Assembly (NCBI GenBank): GCA_964362125.1
Contig: CAYICS010000004.1
Coordinates: 1 to 62,611, forward strand
Reading direction: 5' to 3'
Source: an uncultured Candidatus Saccharibacteria bacterium
GTDB lineage: Bacteria; Patescibacteriota; Minisyncoccia; UBA6257; UBA11618
Length of the DNA stretch: 62,611 bases
In this document: positions 11,766-62,514 of the stretch, one piece after another
How positions within the stretch are numbered: position 1 is the stretch's first letter
Layout of the letters: each line of letters starts with the position of its first letter
Made by a program: the position numbers and the translations under genes
Notes under the pieces: generated by a model
Database searches by the model: none
The model's input: the letters and a program-made list of their open reading frames with translations, nothing else
What the model was told of the DNA's origin: nothing

Positions 11766-11788
11766 GGGTGCTATAATATGGTTAATTA

Positions 11789-11873
11789 GGAAGGGTCGCA
11801 TAGCGGTCTATTGCAGCGGCTTGGAAAGCCGCGCCCCGCAAGGGGCTCGTGGGTTCGAATCCCACCCCTTCCG
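11789..11873 (+). tRNA. tRNA-Ser (GGA), long variable arm; CCA not encoded at this copy
   Basis: GGAAGGG/CCCTTCC acceptor stem, anticodon loop TT-GGA-AA, GGTTCGAATCC T-loop. Confidence 0.95.
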
Positions 11874-11875
11874 CA

Positions 11876-11946
11876 CTTCGGCAAGCTCAGTGCAAGCAAC
11901 TTCGGCAAGCTCAGTGCAAGCAACTTCGGCAAGCTCAGTGCAAGCA
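11876..11946 (+). repeat. Tandem repeat (CTTCGGCAAGCTCAGTGCAAGCAA)x3
   Basis: Identical 24-bp units with no spacers. Confidence 0.95.
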
Positions 11947-11967
11947 TAGGGAAACACCAAAATAACT

Positions 11968-12261
11968 ATGACTACGTGGCACGTGTATATGCTTCTTTGC
12001 GATCAGAAAACTTTTTATGTAGGCATTACCGATGATCCTAAAGAACGATTTGCAGAACACCAAGCGGGTAAGTCGCTTTTTACAAAAAAGTTTTCTGACA
12101 TTCAATTTGTCTACTGCGAAAACTATCCCACAAAGCGCGAATCAGCATCACGCGAAAAACAAATTAAGGGATGGTCGCATGCAAAGAAGCAAATGTTGAT
12201 TGATAGAAAGCTGGGATATAATTTTTGTACTGAGCTTGTTGAAGTTTTGGGGGTGGGATAA
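11968..12261 (+). CDS. Small stand-alone GIY-YIG nuclease (UPF0213/YhbQ-like)
   Basis: HVYMLL...FYVGITDD..R..H...RE.QIKGWS..KK motifs. Confidence 0.9.
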   Translation: MTTWHVYMLLCDQKTFYVGITDDPKERFAEHQAGKSLFTKKFSDIQFVYCENYPTKRESASREKQIKGWSHAKKQMLIDRKLGYNFCTELVEVLGVG

Positions 12262-12538
12262 CTTGCTCTGAGCCTGCCGAAGAGAATCCCACCCCTTCCG
12301 CCAGTTAGTAAATGAAGTTATTGGCTCGCCCGCTCCCACTTCGCCCTTCGGGCTATAAGGAACAAGTCGTGGGCTCGCCAGCCGTTTTTCGGGGAAATTT
12401 CAAGCCGTTTTGCCTGCCCGCCGAAGCCTTGGCGCAGGCAGGAATTCAAGTAAGGCCAAAAGCGGGCTTTTCTTTTCTGAATTGAAAGAAATCATAATTT
12501 TTGATAGTATAGTATAGAAGATTTGTTGAACAAATAAT

Positions 12539-51992: not shown

Positions 51993-52341
51993 ACCAACTG
52001 ATCGAAAATATCCGAAGCCGCGGGTGGGTAGAGGGGGCAAGCGGGGCACTTATTCTGGTCGGGGAATGAAAGGACAAAAAGCCCGGGCTGGCCATCGCAT
52101 CCGGCCAGCTGAGCGTGATTTTCTTTTGCGTTTGCCTAAACTGCGCGGCTTTAAAAATAAACCGCTTCAGCCCAAATTACCAATAATTAATGTGGGAGAT
52201 TTAGAGAGGCGCGGCTTACCTGATTATCCGGTAAAAATTCTCGGTAGGGGCGAATTAACCAAGCCGTTTCATATCAAAGGCCGGCCGGTTTCTAAGTCAG
52301 CTAAAGAAAAAATAATTAAAGCTGGCGGTTCGGTGCAATGA
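51973..52341 (+). CDS. rplO: 50S ribosomal protein L15 (short); rpmD absent upstream
   Basis: RVGRGGKRG.YSGRGMKGQKAR, LPKLRGF. Confidence 0.96.
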   Translation: MQLHQIRPTDRKYPKPRVGRGGKRGTYSGRGMKGQKARAGHRIRPAERDFLLRLPKLRGFKNKPLQPKLPIINVGDLERRGLPDYPVKILGRGELTKPFHIKGRPVSKSAKEKIIKAGGSVQ

Positions 52342-52624
52342 ATCCCGTTAGAGACAACCATGTTCTACTATGTTTATGTCTTACAAAGCAAAAAGGATAG
52401 ACGCTGGTATACAGGATTTACCGATGATCTACGGAAGCGCTTTAATCAACATAACGCAAATCTACAGGGCTGGACTAAAAATCGTGGCCCTTTTGACCTT
52501 ATCTACTTTGAGGGTTGTAAAAATGTTACCGATGCAAGGTCGAGAGAAAAATATCTTAAATCAGGCATGGGTAAGCGCTACCTTAAAAATAGATTAAAGC
52601 GCTTCCTGTCTCTAACGGGATGAA
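52342..52624. mobile_element. IR-flanked GIY-YIG mini-element in the rplO/secY stop-start overlap
   Basis: 15-bp perfect IR 52342-52356/52607-52621; ATGAA direct repeat 52338-52342/52620-52624. Confidence 0.8.
52360..52623 (+). CDS. Small stand-alone GIY-YIG nuclease
   Basis: YVYVLQS...WYTGFTDDLRKR..QHN...REKYLKSG.GK. Confidence 0.92.
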   Translation: MFYYVYVLQSKKDRRWYTGFTDDLRKRFNQHNANLQGWTKNRGPFDLIYFEGCKNVTDARSREKYLKSGMGKRYLKNRLKRFLSLTG

Positions 52625-61162: not shown

Positions 61163-62440
61163 TTATAATAATCTTACCAACTGCTTAAACTTTTGTCCAC
61201 GATCCGCATAGCTCTTGAACATATCAAAACTAGCGGCGCCGGGGGAGAGGATGACGACATCGCCCGACTGAGCCAGTTTTTTAGCCAGGCCCACCGCTTT
61301 TTTTAAATTCGTACTTTCGTATATTCGTACTTTATTCGTAATTCGTAGAGCTTTCTTGATCTTGTTTTTGTTTTCGCCCATCAGGATCAGGGCGCGAATC
61401 CGAGCTCGGGGCAGGGCTTGGGCCCAAATCTTATAATCCAACCCTTTGTCCTTGCCGCCGACAATCAAGACCTTTGGTTCTCTAAAAGCCCGGGCCGCCG
61501 CCACTGTGCCTTCCGGATCGGTGTTGGCAGAGTCGTTGTAATAGCGAACGTCTTTGAGATTTCGCACAAATTCTAATCTATGTTCATTGCCTTTAAATTT
61601 GGAAATTGCTGCCAATGATTTTTTCAATGGGCAGCCCAGATATTTAGCCGCCGCCAGCGCCGCCTGGGCGTTGCGGAAATTGTGTTGCCCGGGTAATTTT
61701 AGCGTTTTACGAAGAAGCGATCGTTCTTTGGCGCTTATATAATGCCAGACAGAAATCTGCCGGCCCGGGCTTTGCTTGGCAATCCGAGCGGAGAGTTTAT
61801 TGTCAGCCAGATAAAAGATTACATCGTTTGCTGTTTGGCGCTGGGCGATTTGGGACTTGGCTTCGAAGTATTCTTTTAAGTTTTTATGATGATCAAGGTG
61901 ATCAGGAAAAACATCCACTACCACAGCCATCTGGGGCGCCCGGTCAATATCCTGAAGCTGGAAACTGGACAACTCCAAAATCACAATTTCGCGTCCTCGG
62001 AGGACGCGAAATTGGGGAAGAAGGTCTAGGGCCGGGGCGCCGATATTGCCGGCTAGATGCGTCCGCCAACCGGATTTTTTCAGAGCTAGATAAAGCAGGG
62101 TGGCAGTCGTGCCTTTGCCCTTGGTGCCGGTGATGCCGATAACCGGGCAGGGACATTTTTGGAAAAATAATCTGGTTAAACTGGTTATATTAGGGTTTAG
62201 GGTATAGGGTTTAGGGTTTAGTAAGCGATAAGGCACTCCGGGCGACCTAAAAATCAGGTCAAATTTTTTCAGGCCGCGCAAATAGTTTTTGCCCAATTGT
62301 TTGTGGACGCCGGCCGGCACCTTCAGCCGAGCATTTTGATCCAACACCCAAATATCCAATCTATTGATGTGAGACATCAATAGATATTGGTAGATGGCGT
62401 TGCCTTCGCGGCCGAATCCAAGAATGGCAATTTTTGACAT
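61163..62440 (-). CDS. murD: UDP-N-acetylmuramoyl-L-alanine--D-glutamate ligase
   Basis: IAILGFGREG, FRSPG, GITGTKGKGT, LELSSFQL, HLDHH, HRLE, YYNDS, LSPGAASF. Confidence 0.97.
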   Translation of the reverse strand: MSKIAILGFGREGNAIYQYLLMSHINRLDIWVLDQNARLKVPAGVHKQLGKNYLRGLKKFDLIFRSPGVPYRLLNPKPYTLNPNITSLTRLFFQKCPCPVIGITGTKGKGTTATLLYLALKKSGWRTHLAGNIGAPALDLLPQFRVLRGREIVILELSSFQLQDIDRAPQMAVVVDVFPDHLDHHKNLKEYFEAKSQIAQRQTANDVIFYLADNKLSARIAKQSPGRQISVWHYISAKERSLLRKTLKLPGQHNFRNAQAALAAAKYLGCPLKKSLAAISKFKGNEHRLEFVRNLKDVRYYNDSANTDPEGTVAAARAFREPKVLIVGGKDKGLDYKIWAQALPRARIRALILMGENKNKIKKALRITNKVRIYESTNLKKAVGLAKKLAQSGDVVILSPGAASFDMFKSYADRGQKFKQLVRLL

Positions 62441-62514
62441 GGTGCCGACGGCAGGGATCGAACCTGCGACCCAGCGCTTATGAAACGCTTGCTCTGCCAC
62501 TGAGCTACGCCGGC
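62440..62514 (-). tRNA. tRNA with a CAT anticodon (elongator Met or Ile2), CCA encoded
   Basis: GCCGGCG/CGTCGGC acceptor (1-72 paired, so not initiator), TT-CAT-AA loop. Confidence 0.93.

What the first reader, a model, noticed from the sequence alone, without database searches (positions are those of the whole stretch)
11857..12303. Second GIY-YIG mini-element at the tRNA-Ser 3' end, with no integrase
Seen: 18 bp of the tRNA 3' end (GAATCCCACCCCTTCCGC) are duplicated about 410 bp apart, and only the distal copy continues to CCA. Inside are three tandem CTTCGGCAAGCTCAGTGCAAGCAA units, the nuclease, and two inverted copies (12225-12244 inside the CDS, 12262-12282). The layout matches the secY element (left IR before the ATG, right IR inside the C-terminus) but uses an unrelated repeat sequence. 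Established: tRNA 3' duplications usually mark tyrosine-integrase islands, yet only a GIY-YIG gene lies between these repeats.
Basis: partly seen in the sequence, partly recalled or inferred. Interest (0 to 1): 0.72.

Follow-up and report, generated by a model that had tools for sequence, protein, structure and literature searches.

The report
Tiny nuclease element lodged behind tRNA-Ser
A 409-bp piece of selfish DNA whose only gene is a 97-residue GIY-YIG nuclease has inserted at the 3' end of a serine tRNA gene and duplicated the tRNA's last 18 bases; it belongs to a large family in ultra-small (CPR) bacteria that does this at many tRNA genes, and I found no published description of it.

Summary
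tRNA-Ser(GGA) lies at 11789-11874. Its last 18 nt recur at 12284-12301, and only that second copy runs on into CA. Between the copies lie 409 bp: three 24-nt left-end repeats, one 97-aa GIY-YIG gene, and two inverted right-end copies.

The reading "mini-element without integrase" holds and generalises. I examined 80 related loci from Patescibacteria genomes.
- In 54, a same-strand tRNA ends just upstream (Ser, Gln, Tyr, Asn, Glu or Lys).
- In 45, an exact direct repeat of that locus's own tRNA end flanks the element. It is 17-19 nt long in 41 of them and starts in the T-loop.
- The DNA between the repeats is 347-557 bp, too short for an integrase.
- The left junction is always tRNA end|(A)CTTCGGCAAGCTCAG.

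Synonymous sites between the closest elements are saturated, yet the repeats are perfect, so insertions are recent and recurrent. tRNA-Ser sites in 29 loci from relatives' genomes lack the element.

The protein is a UPF0213/Slx1-like catalytic domain under purifying selection.

Most likely mechanism (inferred): the nuclease nicks the tRNA gene in the T-loop and after nt 74. This leaves 18-nt 3' overhangs, and host repair copies the element in, keeping the tRNA intact.

Unexplained: 25 loci where the element plus its right 18-mer sits at non-tRNA sites.

The parts
11789..11874 (+). tRNA-Ser(GGA), the insertion target. It is complete through discriminator G73 and C74. A -10-like TATAAT lies at about 11772-11777.
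   Evidence: ARAGORN; sequence.
11857..11874 (+). Left copy of the 18-nt direct repeat GAATCCCACCCCTTCCGC, from T-loop nt 57 to C74. It is part of the working tRNA.
   Evidence: the repeat finder D2.
11875..11946 (+). Left end of the element: three exact tandem 24-nt units ACTTCGGCAAGCTCAGTGCAAGCA. Most relatives have one unit; L090 has at least four.
   Evidence: The left-end sequence is nearly invariant in 80 loci.
11968..12261 (+). GIY-YIG nuclease gene, 97 aa, a single UPF0213/Slx1-like domain. The element's only gene.
   Evidence: Pfam PF01541 E=3.7e-15. PDB 1zg2 E=1.3e-7. AF2 pLDDT 89 with Foldseek hits to 1zg2, 1ywl and Slx1. dN/dS about 0.13.
12225..12246 (+). Inner right inverted repeat, inside the CDS. 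It encodes the conserved C-terminal motif CTELVEV.
   Evidence: the repeat finder I4-I6. Motif conserved in 31 homologues. Pairs with left unit 3 in the single-strand fold.
12250..12259 (+). GGGGTGGGAT, spanning the last codons and the first base of the stop. It is complementary to 12286-12295 (ATCCCACCCC) of the right repeat and forms a 10-bp stem with the outer IR in the loop.
   Evidence: strand folding. Family-wide enrichment is real but partial.
12262..12283 (+). Outer right terminal inverted repeat, CTTGCTCTGAGCCTGCCGAAG plus A. This is the right end of the element.
   Evidence: the repeat finder I1-I3, 19/21 complementary to the left unit.
12284..12303 (+). Right copy of the 18-nt repeat (12284-12301) followed by CA, the displaced original 3' end of the tRNA gene (GCCA).
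   Evidence: Relatives' empty tRNA-Ser genes with the same 3' end read ...CCTTCCGCCA.
12452..12470 (+). Terminator-like hairpin followed by a T run. It is the likely end of a tRNA-plus-nuclease read-through transcript; no promoter-like site lies between the tRNA and the ATG.
   Evidence: scan_promoters_terminators. Consensus match only.

Best explanation
**What it is.** Positions 11875-12283 are a selfish mobile mini-element. Its only gene encodes a bare UPF0213/Slx1-like GIY-YIG nuclease. The element sits between nt 74 and nt 75 of the tRNA-Ser(GGA) gene.

**Shown:**
- The element has terminal inverted repeats.
- It is flanked by an exact 18-nt duplication of the target, running from T-loop nt 57 to C74.
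- More than 280 relatives exist across Patescibacteria. They lie at the same position of many different tRNA genes, and each is flanked by that tRNA's own last 17-19 nt.
- The insertions are young compared with the divergence of the elements.

**Inferred mechanism:**
1. The nuclease recognises the T-arm and acceptor end of a tRNA gene, by structure and/or the universal GTTCGAATCC motif.
2. It nicks the tRNA-sense strand after C74 and the other strand opposite T-loop nt 56/57. This gives a break with 18-nt 3' overhangs.
3. Both 3' ends prime on a donor copy through short terminal homologies: GAATCC on one side and the last few acceptor bases on the other.
4. Host polymerase and ligase copy the element in. 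This is a copy-and-paste, homing-like route without a transposase.
5. Because both overhangs stay in the product, the 18 nt are duplicated.

**Consequences (inferred):**
- The tRNA stays complete. It needs only CCA completion, as do about half of this genome's tRNAs.
- The recognition site is split, which would protect the occupied site from re-cutting.
- The nuclease gene has no promoter-like site of its own and is probably read through from the tRNA promoter.
For: **Anatomy.**

**Family.**
- 282 proteins at E<=1e-5 (52-85% identical among those listed).
- 287 confirmed loci in species-representative genomes.

**Position and duplication.**
- 46 of 80 loci have a same-strand tRNA ending 28-400 nt upstream by ARAGORN.
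- Five more have intron-bearing tRNA-Asn and three have tRNAs cut by contig ends.
- 45 loci have exact repeats of the local tRNA end. 41 of these are 17-19 nt, and 28 begin right after GTTC of the T-loop. Spacing is 347-557 bp.

**The duplication is made from the target.**
- The supported clade that holds the window's element (99/88) sits at Ser, Gln, Asn and Tyr tRNAs, each with its own matching repeat.
- In L079 both copies flanking the element read GATACCC..., while the tRNA 400 nt upstream reads GAATCCC....

**Insertions are recent.** dS between the closest elements exceeds 1, yet the repeats are 18/18.

**The site is empty in relatives.** tRNA-Ser genes in 29 loci from relatives' genomes lack the element. 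Three of them have the same 3' end.

**The element is mobile and transferred.**
- Host phyla are mixed within protein clades.
- L055 and L056 share 438 bp at 100% identity in different left contexts.
- In the source metagenomes, the summed word depth over the tRNA end and the left terminal repeat (11847-11903), and over the 5' part of the CDS (11980-12017), is about 7-30 times that of the unique flanks. The first of these stretches includes the conserved tRNA T-arm.

**The enzyme looks competent.**
- GIY-YIG residues Y17, G19, R27 and E63 are invariant; Y7, H31 and N85 are nearly so.
- dN/dS is about 0.13.
- The fold is confident and nearest to UPF0213 and to Slx1, a structure-specific nuclease.

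**Overhang polarity.** The 3' overhangs required by the model match the 3' overhangs reported for the GIY-YIG homing endonuclease SegB (abstract of PMC2330249).
Against: - **Nothing biochemical is known.** Cleavage sites, strand polarity and the role of host repair are inferred from junction geometry alone.
- **No syntenic empty allele and no population polymorphism was found**. The empty tRNA-Ser sites in relatives lie in different gene neighbourhoods.
- **The inverted repeats are not needed by this model.** A pure homing model does not need terminal inverted repeats, yet the left end is almost invariant and has two inverted partners. That suggests end recognition, as in true transposons.
- **Non-tRNA loci.** 25 of 80 loci have no tRNA on the left. 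They carry a right-hand tRNA fragment that matches the left flank only in its last 3-9 nt. About eight tRNA-adjacent loci have mismatched repeats. In those cases one 18-mer travelled with the element, which needs an added assumption: run-off copying from a donor cut after its right 18-mer.
- **Only one copy of this subfamily is in this genome**.
Confidence: 0.6

Rival explanations
1. A true cut-and-paste or copy-out transposon. The GIY-YIG protein acts as the transposase: it binds the terminal inverted repeats, frees the element, and joins it into a target cut with an 18-bp stagger. The duplication is then a classical target-site duplication.
For: - TIRs of 19/21, with a nearly invariant left end across elements whose synonymous sites are saturated.
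- A constant 17-19-nt duplication made from the target.
- A long end-to-end panhandle in the single-strand fold, z=-4.96.
- One Logan contig in run X2 joins 11875 to 12284 (repeat-A-repeat), as an excision footprint would.
Against: - GIY-YIG nucleases are hydrolytic; none is known to carry out strand transfer or joining (my own knowledge).
- A 97-aa single domain has no obvious DNA-binding module.
- The 25 loci where the right 18-mer travelled with the element do not fit a plain duplication model.
- The footprint-like contig has only 20 nt on its short side, occurs in one run, and may hold other letters between the two sides.
Confidence: 0.2
2. A single-strand 'peel and paste' element of the Ssn or IS200/IS605 kind. 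The nuclease cuts only single-stranded DNA at a fixed distance from a hairpin: the T-arm of the tRNA-like strand on the left, and a mimic on the right formed by 12250-12259 pairing with the right 18-mer. The unit 'element plus right 18-mer' moves, and it lands 3' of sequences that resemble its own 3' end.
For: - The related single-domain Ssn nucleases cut only ssDNA next to hairpin repeats that flank their genes (PMC11893778).
- A 10-bp stem joins the element's last codons and the right repeat.
- Such complementarity is enriched family-wide: p=7e-6; runs of at least 8 nt in 8.9% of own pairs against 0.6% of cross pairs.
- The unit 'element plus right 18-mer' is what moved in L055/L056 and in the 25 non-tRNA loci. 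Their left flanks share the last 3-9 nt with the right 18-mer.
Against: - A carried 18-mer predicts mismatched repeats whenever the element enters a new tRNA type or host. Instead, 45 loci with many different 18-mers have exact repeats, including all members of the window's clade.
- L079 shows duplication of the target itself.
- The complementarity reaches 6 nt in only 13 of 45 loci.
- The SRM motif of the Ssn paper is absent near the gene.
- No joining activity is known for these nucleases.
Confidence: 0.15
3. A decayed remnant of a tRNA-integrated island. A tyrosine integrase once recombined attP with the tRNA 3' end, and everything but a cargo nuclease gene was later deleted.
For: Direct repeats of a tRNA 3' end are the hallmark of integrase-mediated islands (established knowledge). 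The distal copy keeps the native CCA.
Against: - In 45 related loci the repeats are 347-557 bp apart, with the GIY-YIG gene as the only gene between them.
- The repeat sequence changes with the local tRNA.
- The element has its own inverted ends abutting the repeats.
- The only tyrosine recombinase in the genome lies on contig C8.
Confidence: 0.02
4. A resident host gene, for example a tRNA- or DNA-repair nuclease, that is simply co-transcribed with tRNAs. The repeats would be by-products of local recombination, and the gene would not be mobile.
For: - UPF0213 proteins are widespread chromosomal genes of unknown role (PDB names).
- The gene has no promoter-like site of its own and sits in a tRNA transcription unit.
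- The protein is under strong purifying selection.
Against: - Distribution is patchy, and relatives' sites are empty.
- Each locus has a different tRNA neighbour with a matching 18-nt duplication.
- Host phyla are mixed in the protein tree.
- Identical copies lie in different contexts.
- Tandem and nested copies occur.
Confidence: 0.03

Closest known systems
Ssn site-specific single-strand DNA nucleases with flanking NTS/SRM repeats (Chenal et al. 2025, Nat Commun 16:2388, PMC11893778)
   Same: - A single-domain GIY-YIG protein of about 95 aa.
- Its gene is bracketed by short repeats in an IS-like repeat-gene-repeat layout.
- The authors themselves compare this layout with insertion sequences.
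   Different: - Their repeats are self-folding hairpins scattered in hundreds of copies, and they match a defined SRM motif. That motif is absent near this gene (3 hits in the whole genome).
- In what I read of the paper (Results part 1 with the section on the Ssn family, the Discussion and one Methods section), no tRNA target and no target duplication is reported.
- Here the arms are terminal inverted repeats that pair with each other.
- The nearest solved relatives of this protein are UPF0213 proteins. I could not test membership of cd10448.
Free-standing GIY-YIG homing endonuclease genes of phages, e.g. T4 SegB in the tRNA gene cluster (PMC2330249)
   Same: - A selfish GIY-YIG nuclease gene lodged among tRNA genes.
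- It cuts there, leaving 3' overhangs, and spreads by host repair (abstract).
- This is the behaviour my preferred mechanism borrows.
   Different: - Seg and I-Tev enzymes are about 200-250 aa with separate DNA-binding domains (my own knowledge). This protein is 97 aa and does not match TIGR01453.
- Homing leaves no inverted ends and no fixed target duplication. It also does not hop between different tRNA species.
tRNA-targeting integrative elements with tyrosine integrases
   Same: The insertion is at the 3' end of a tRNA gene. It is flanked by a direct repeat of that end, so the tRNA stays whole.
   Different: - There is no integrase.
- The repeat is copied from each target rather than being a fixed att core.
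- The element is 0.35-0.56 kb instead of several kb.
Casposons (Cas1-driven transposons)
   Same: These are transposon-like elements with TIRs that insert at the 3' end of a tRNA gene and make an unusually long target duplication (about 14-15 bp; my own knowledge, with PMC5137440 listed).
   Different: - Casposons are 8-20 kb and carry a Cas1 integrase and a polymerase.
- This element has only a GIY-YIG nuclease, and its duplication is 18 bp from the T-loop to nt 74.
Slx1 structure-specific endonuclease and bacterial UPF0213 (YhbQ/BH0048/EF2693) proteins
   Same: These are the best sequence and fold matches. Slx1 cuts branched and stem-loop DNA by shape, which fits a target defined by tRNA-gene geometry.
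   Different: - Slx1 works with Slx4 and has a RING domain.
- UPF0213 proteins are not known to be mobile or tied to tRNA genes.
IS200/IS605 elements
   Same: - Very small elements that may use single-stranded DNA.
- They insert 3' of a short target that resembles the element's own end, read by base pairing with an internal guide (my own knowledge).
- This is echoed by the non-tRNA loci and by the 10-nt complement.
   Different: - They use an HUH Y1 transposase.
- They have subterminal hairpins rather than TIRs.
- They make no target duplication.

Membership tests
Ssn nucleases (cd10448) with SRM repeats | Single-domain GIY-YIG protein of about 90-100 aa | tested here: met
   97 aa with one PF01541 domain over residues 4-74. 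The model is compact, pLDDT 89.
Ssn nucleases (cd10448) with SRM repeats | Falls in the cd10448 clade of the GIY-YIG superfamily | not testable with these tools
   No CDD search and no SsnA sequence were at hand. The nearest solved relatives are UPF0213 proteins 1zg2 and 1ywl.
Ssn nucleases (cd10448) with SRM repeats | SRM hairpin motif (HGTCWY...RNCYNB) flanking the gene | tested here: not met
   The paper's degenerate motif has 3 matches in the 618-kb genome and none within 1 kb of the gene. Other repeats flank it instead.
Ssn nucleases (cd10448) with SRM repeats | Cuts only single-stranded DNA next to its repeat | not testable with these tools
   Needs a biochemical assay.
Free-standing GIY-YIG homing endonuclease genes (Seg / I-Tev type) | GIY-YIG catalytic residues present | tested here: met
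   Y17, G19, R27 and E63 are invariant and Y7, H31 and N85 nearly invariant in 31 homologues. Their mapping to I-TevI residues comes from my own knowledge.
Free-standing GIY-YIG homing endonuclease genes (Seg / I-Tev type) | Separate C-terminal DNA-binding domain that gives site specificity | tested here: not met
   97 aa, with no second domain in Pfam or NCBIfam, and TIGR01453 is not matched by this protein. There is only a short C-terminal helix.
Free-standing GIY-YIG homing endonuclease genes (Seg / I-Tev type) | Presence/absence at the same site among relatives | tested here: inconclusive
   tRNA-Ser loci in 29 loci from relatives' genomes lack it, but their neighbourhoods differ. No empty allele was found in metagenomes.
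Free-standing GIY-YIG homing endonuclease genes (Seg / I-Tev type) | Insertion without terminal inverted repeats or fixed target duplication | tested here: not met
   TIRs 19/21 and an 18-nt duplication here; 17-19 nt in 41 of 45 relatives.
tRNA-integrated tyrosine-integrase islands | Integrase gene between the att repeats | tested here: not met
   Only the GIY-YIG ORF lies between the repeats. Spacing is 347-557 bp in 45 loci. The genome's single PF00589 hit is on contig C8.
tRNA-integrated tyrosine-integrase islands | Direct repeat of the tRNA 3' end at both borders | tested here: met
   18/18.
Insertion sequences (TIR + TSD + transposase) | Terminal inverted repeats abutting the duplication | tested here: met
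   (A)CTTCGGCAAGCTCAGTGCAAG against (T)CTTCGGCAGGCTCAGAGCAAG, at the junctions.
Insertion sequences (TIR + TSD + transposase) | Target-site duplication made from the target | tested here: met
   The repeats follow each local tRNA. L079 duplicates a variant 18-mer that differs from the tRNA.
Insertion sequences (TIR + TSD + transposase) | Transposase of a known class (DDE, HUH, serine, tyrosine, Cas1) | tested here: not met
   The sole ORF is a GIY-YIG nuclease.
Insertion sequences (TIR + TSD + transposase) | Several copies per genome | tested here: not met
   This genome has one copy of this subfamily. Two MAGs each hold two copies at different tRNAs (L073/L075 and L079/L090).
UPF0213 / Slx1-like GIY-YIG domain | Sequence and fold similarity to BH0048, EF2693 and Slx1 | tested here: met
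   phmmer gives 1zg2 E=1.3e-7 and 1ywl E=1.4e-6. Foldseek gives 1zg2, 1ywl and then Slx1 entries, all with probability 1.00.

The most novel reading that the evidence does not exclude
The element carries its own target address in DNA. The few bases just before the stop codon (12250-12259, GGGGTGGGAT) are complementary to the T-stem and acceptor strand of the tRNA gene it sits in. They would pair with the target, or with the displaced 18-mer, and so build the hairpin that a shape-reading, Slx1/Ssn-like nuclease cuts. That would make this a nucleic-acid-guided, retargetable insertion system of about 350-400 bp with a 97-residue enzyme. It would also be a class of transposable element with no known transposase.
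Probability: 0.12. Interest if true: 0.95.

Novelty: new variant of a known kind. Interest (0 to 1): 0.78.

Why it matters
**A very small, possibly self-contained mobile element.** If the 97-residue nuclease is what moves this DNA, it would be among the smallest self-contained mobile elements known (347-557 bp). Its enzyme class is not on the list of prokaryotic transposases.

**A shaper of CPR genomes.** The family is abundant in ultra-small CPR bacteria.
- There are 287 loci of this subfamily alone in species-representative genomes.
- Sister subfamilies sit at the 5' side of tRNA genes.
- The family may therefore shape their tiny genomes and tRNA loci, and explain part of the many short repeats seen there.

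**A target defined by geometry.** The fixed geometry (T-loop to nt 74, across six tRNA types) points to recognition of nucleic-acid shape by a minimal nuclease. That is directly testable, and it is of practical interest alongside the recently described Ssn single-strand nucleases.

**An annotation caveat.** A duplicated tRNA 3' end does not always mark an integrase island.

Tried and rejected
**Searches that failed or gave nothing**
- The search for related loci with the alignment of the genome's five divergent GIY-YIG proteins failed because no block was conserved enough. An alignment of close homologues worked.
- NCBIfam gave no family for this protein.
- Three full-text literature searches found no description of tRNA-targeting GIY-YIG mini-elements. 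The library does not hold most subscription journals, so this absence is not proof.

**Population polymorphism**
- Only Logan contigs were available.
- They showed the filled form and many other family members.
- They also showed one ambiguous contig joining 11875 to 12284, which I do not count as evidence.
- Exact-pattern scans of JGI metagenome contigs for the predicted empty site, and for the right flank, found nothing.

**Readings tested and rejected**
- *Integrase-island remnant.* Rejected on the spacing of the repeats in 45 loci and on the location of the only tyrosine recombinase.
- *Ssn membership by flanking motif.* The SRM motif is absent.
- *The right 18-mer is always carried by the element, like an att site.* Rejected as the general rule, because repeats are exact at many different tRNAs within one clade and because of L079. 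It does hold for about a third of loci.
- *The distal copy is the working 3' end and the insert is removed from the RNA.* I found nothing to support this. Other loci lack CCA after the distal copy.

**Side check left open**
- A search for a CCA-adding enzyme (PF01743, PF09249) found none. I leave that open.
Full report
**1. The observation**

- The window lies on contig C4 of a 618-kb, 24-contig genome. Its closest relatives in public records are labelled Patescibacteria (CPR) bacteria.
- ARAGORN places tRNA-Ser(GGA) at 11789-11874 on the + strand.
- The last 18 nt of the tRNA, GAATCCCACCCCTTCCGC, run from the middle of the T-loop through discriminator G73 and C74. They recur exactly at 12284-12301.
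- The first copy is followed by ACTTCGG. The second is followed by CAGTTAG, so only the second reads GCCA.
- The 409 bp between the copies hold, in order:
  - three exact 24-nt units ACTTCGGCAAGCTCAGTGCAAGCA (11875-11946);
  - one ORF of 97 aa (11968-12261);
  - an inverted copy of the unit inside the end of the ORF (12225-12246, 19/22);
  - a second inverted copy after the stop codon (12262-12282, 19/21).
- The 21-mer with up to 3 mismatches occurs four times in the window and never in shuffles.
The one correction is that the spacing is 427 start to start.

**2. The gene**

- The ORF is a GIY-YIG domain (Pfam E=3.7e-15) with no NCBIfam family.
- Its nearest solved relatives are the UPF0213 proteins BH0048 and EF2693.
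- An AlphaFold model built on 31 homologues is confident (pLDDT 89). Foldseek ranks the same two proteins first, then Slx1, the structure-specific nuclease.
- Y17, G19, R27 and E63 are invariant in the homologue alignment, and Y7, H31 and N85 nearly so. By my knowledge of I-TevI these are the catalytic positions.
- In the window's clade, pairwise dN/dS is about 0.13 while dS is above 1. The protein is therefore maintained by selection.

**3. The family and its context**

- The protein has 282 homologues at E<=1e-5, most from CPR metagenome bins.
- There are 287 confirmed loci in species-representative genomes. I took the best 80 with flanks (L037-L116).
- *tRNA neighbours.*
  - In 46 loci ARAGORN finds a tRNA on the same strand ending 28-400 nt before the ATG. 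In most the distance is 28-100 nt.
  - The tRNAs are Ser(GCU, GGA, UGA, CGA), Gln(UUG, CUG), Tyr, Asn, Glu(CUC, UUC) and Lys(CUU).
  - Five more loci have a tRNA-Asn interrupted by a group I intron, which ARAGORN misses. Rfam confirmed three; I read the other two from sequence.
  - Three more tRNAs are cut by contig ends.
  - That makes 54 of 80. By my rough estimate, about 45 tRNA genes per 0.7 Mb would put a same-strand tRNA end within 100 nt upstream in about 0.3% of cases.
- *Junctions.* The left junction is always tRNA end|(A)CTTCGGCAAGCTCAGTGCAAGC. The right junction is ...CCGAAG(G/A)|GAATCC....
- *Repeats.*
  - In 45 loci an exact repeat of at least 12 nt of the local tRNA end flanks the element.
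  - 41 of these repeats are 17-19 nt. 28 begin right after GTTC of the T-loop, and 8 begin one base later.
  - The DNA between the repeats is 347-557 bp, median 375.
- No integrase can fit. The genome's only tyrosine recombinase lies on contig C8.

**4. Is the duplication made from the target?**

Three results say yes for most loci.
- The repeat differs from locus to locus and follows the local tRNA, including T-stem variants within one tRNA type.
- In the protein tree, target type is clustered (23 changes against 45.5 in shuffles) but switches often. The well-supported clade that holds the window's element (99/88) sits at Ser, Gln, Asn and Tyr tRNAs in several candidate phyla. Each member has a matching repeat.
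- L079 has the order tRNA-Ser(GGA)+CCA, a GIY-YIG element of another subfamily, an 18-mer, an element of the present subfamily, and a second 18-mer followed by CA.
  - Both 18-mers read GATACCCTCCCTTTCCGC, while the tRNA itself reads GAATCCC....
  - The present type therefore duplicated the fragment it landed beside, not something it brought along.

Timing supports the same view. Synonymous sites between the closest elements are saturated while the repeats are perfect. Each insertion is thus far younger than the split between elements, which implies repeated, ongoing insertion.

**5. Empty sites and population data**

- In 29 tRNA-Ser loci from relatives' genomes, none has this element.
- Three of them share the window's exact 3' end and read ...CCTTCCGC(CA) followed by unrelated DNA. 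The neighbourhoods differ, so these are not syntenic empty alleles.
- Logan contigs of the source groundwater runs hold the filled form.
  - Summed word depth over the tRNA end and the left terminal repeat (11847-11903), and over the 5' part of the CDS (11980-12017), is about 7-30 times that of the unique flanks.
  - The first stretch includes the conserved tRNA T-arm, which inflates it.
  - Even so, many family members live in that community.
- One contig in one run joins 11875 to 12284 (repeat-A-repeat). Its short side is 20 nt, and the tool cannot exclude intervening letters. I record it as a lead only.
- Exact scans of JGI metagenome contigs for the predicted empty site found nothing.

**6. 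What does not fit a simple picture**

- 25 of the 80 loci have no tRNA on the left.
  - Their right flank is still a true tRNA 3' fragment of Asn, Glu or Gln type.
  - Their left flank shares only its last 3-9 nt (median 6) with that fragment.
  - About 15 of them have GTTC about 28 nt before the junction.
- L055 (at an intron-bearing tRNA-Asn) and L056 (after a protein gene) share 438 bp at 100% identity. The shared stretch runs from CGGAGC|ACTTCGG to the end of the right 18-mer.
- About eight tRNA-adjacent loci have mismatched repeats.
- In these cases the unit 'element plus right 18-mer' moved.
- In the window, the ten bases 12250-12259 pair with 12286-12295 of the right repeat, with the outer IR in the loop.
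  - Across the family such complementarity is enriched over cross-locus controls (p=7e-6; at least 8 nt in 8.9% against 0.6%).
  - It reaches 6 nt in only 13 of 45 loci.
- As a single strand the whole element folds into a long panhandle. Left units 2 and 3 pair with the outer and inner right copies (z=-4.96).

**7. Mechanism**

- *Shown:* the anatomy, the fixed geometry, the target-derived duplication, the recency of insertion, and the absence of any other gene.
- *Inferred:* the nuclease nicks the tRNA-sense strand after C74 and the other strand opposite T-loop nt 56/57.
  - Both positions are single-stranded in a cloverleaf fold.
  - This polarity gives 18-nt 3' overhangs, the polarity reported for the GIY-YIG enzyme SegB (abstract of PMC2330249).
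- If the two 3' ends prime on a donor copy through short terminal homologies, host repair would copy the element in and keep both overhangs.
  - The homologies are GAATCC, shared by nearly all tRNAs, and the last acceptor bases.
  - This yields a target-derived 18-nt duplication at any tRNA type without a transposase.
- Run-off copying from a donor cut after its own right 18-mer, primed by 3-9 nt of homology at a chance break, would give the non-tRNA loci.
- This model does not explain why the ends are inverted repeats, or why the left end is nearly invariant.
  - For that reason I keep two rivals: a true transposase-like role (0.2) and an Ssn/IS200-like single-strand route (0.15).
  - Remnant-island and resident-gene readings are close to excluded.
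- The tRNA should remain functional. It is complete to C74, like about half of this genome's 41 tRNA genes, which also lack an encoded CCA.
- No promoter-like site lies between the tRNA and the ATG. A terminator-like hairpin follows at 12452-12470, so read-through expression is likely.

**8. Comparison with what is known**

- The closest published system is the Ssn family. These are single-domain GIY-YIG nucleases that cut only single-stranded DNA beside hairpin repeats flanking their genes, a layout the authors liken to an IS (PMC11893778).
  - This locus shares the protein size and the repeat-gene-repeat layout.
  - The paper's SRM motif is absent here, the arms pair with each other rather than with themselves, and I could not test clade membership.
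  - In the parts of the paper I read, no tRNA target or duplication is reported.
- Phage Seg-type homing genes share the selfish logic and the tRNA setting. They have DNA-binding domains and leave no TIRs or duplication.
- Integrase islands and casposons share the tRNA 3' target and a long duplication but use different enzymes.
- Three literature searches found no description of this element type. The library is incomplete.
- Earlier notes of this scan describe the same kind of cassette in several hundred genomes. They are unchecked AI notes and not independent support, but what I tested agrees with them.

**9. Verdict**

- This is a real, recently inserted member of a large family of GIY-YIG mini-elements that target tRNA gene ends, apparently undescribed in the literature I could search.
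- I rate it a new variant of a known kind: selfish GIY-YIG nuclease genes, or Ssn-like repeat-gene-repeat modules.
- There is a substantial chance that it is a new class of transposable element.
- Interest 0.78.

Noticed in passing
L004 (G000:C5:35213-38419; gene at C5:36713-36919, minus strand): - Another small GIY-YIG gene sits just 5' of a tRNA-Asn(GUU) that ARAGORN misses, because the tRNA carries an intron-like insert of about 250 nt in the anticodon loop. Equivalent inserts in L051, L068 and L083 match Rfam group I intron.
- The first roughly 40 nt of the tRNA, up to the intron's first 3 nt, are duplicated upstream of the nuclease gene.
- That upstream copy is interrupted in the D-loop by the palindrome CCTGCCTGCCGGCAGGCAGG.
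- The 3' end of this tRNA is followed by an ORF-less array of CTTCGAC...GCTCAG units.
   Followed up: partly
L026:1080-1600, L029:1480-2000, L036:1440-1960: - A sister subfamily of GIY-YIG genes lies immediately 5' of tRNA-Ser genes in relatives.
- Each has a duplication of the tRNA's 5' part upstream of the nuclease gene: 13 nt, 36 nt, or about 26 nt plus 25 nt of upstream flank.
- L026 has the same 20-nt palindrome inside the dead copy.
- Unlike the fixed 18 nt at the 3' side, the duplication length varies.
   Followed up: partly
L005 (G000:C6:2652-5858) and L002 (G000:C11:13265-15306): - **C6.** A GIY-YIG gene lies between tRNA-Ile(GAU) and tRNA-Val(GAC). It is preceded by a degenerate tRNA 5' end (GGGGCGCGTAGCTCAGTC) and tandem repeats.
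- **C11.** A GIY-YIG gene lies behind tRNA-Gly(UCC), with the junction ...CGCTC|ACTTCTTCGC. No right-hand duplication is seen before the contig ends.
- Four of the genome's five small GIY-YIG genes are tRNA-adjacent.
   Followed up: partly
window 52338-52624: The secY element is a fifth small GIY-YIG gene (87 aa), framed by TCCCGTTAGAGACA/TGTCTCTAACGGGA between rplO and secY. ATGAA occurs on both sides. The layout is the same, but the repeat and the target differ.
   Followed up: partly
window 12304-12470: GC-rich repeats and hairpins lie just downstream of the right repeat. Examples are GGCTCGCCCGC...GGGCTCGCCAGC and the palindrome GCCTGCC...GGCAGG around 12400-12432. Their summed word depths in the source metagenomes reach up to about 2500, against about 9 for unique DNA. 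They are very abundant mini-repeats of that community.
   Followed up: no
whole genome G000: About half of the 41 tRNA genes found encode only N73-C74 followed by A-rich sequence rather than CCA. Yet neither the bacterial (PF01743) nor the archaeal (PF09249) CCA-adding enzyme domain was found in this 97%-complete genome.
   Followed up: partly
L056, L057, L064, L065, L098, L099, L102, L104, L114 and 16 more loci: Some elements of this family sit at non-tRNA sites but are still followed by a genuine tRNA 3' 18-mer. The left flank shares only its last 3-9 nt with that 18-mer, and often has GTTC about 28 nt upstream. L055 and L056 are 100% identical over 438 bp, with different left flanks.
   Followed up: partly
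L079:1557-2370: This locus is a nested array: tRNA-Ser(GGA)+CCA, then a GIY-YIG element of another subfamily (left end TCCTTCGCTAAAGC), then an 18-mer, then an element of the present subfamily, then a second 18-mer. L044, L052 and L111 also have a second full or partial left end right after the right 18-mer, so they are tandem arrays.
   Followed up: yes
G000 contigs C1:78720, C5:27412, C9:13741, C12:13625, C14:4744, C17:3085, C18:3750, C22:1323: Solo copies of a related motif, (C)CTTCGACAGGCTCAGGGCAAG, are scattered in the genome away from any GIY-YIG gene. I did not examine their contexts (intergenic or in frame).
   Followed up: no
window 62440-62514 and G000:C2:83757-83831: The same tRNA-Met and the same downstream bases (TGTCAAAAATTGCCATTCTTG) lie at the end of contig C2 and near the end of the window. 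These two contig ends probably overlap in the real chromosome.
   Followed up: no
window 11875/12284 in run X2: One Logan contig (depth 5.3 against 9.5 for the filled form) joins 11875 to 12284, giving repeat-A-repeat, as an excision footprint would. Its short side is 20 nt, intervening letters are not excluded, and it is absent from three other runs.
   Followed up: partly
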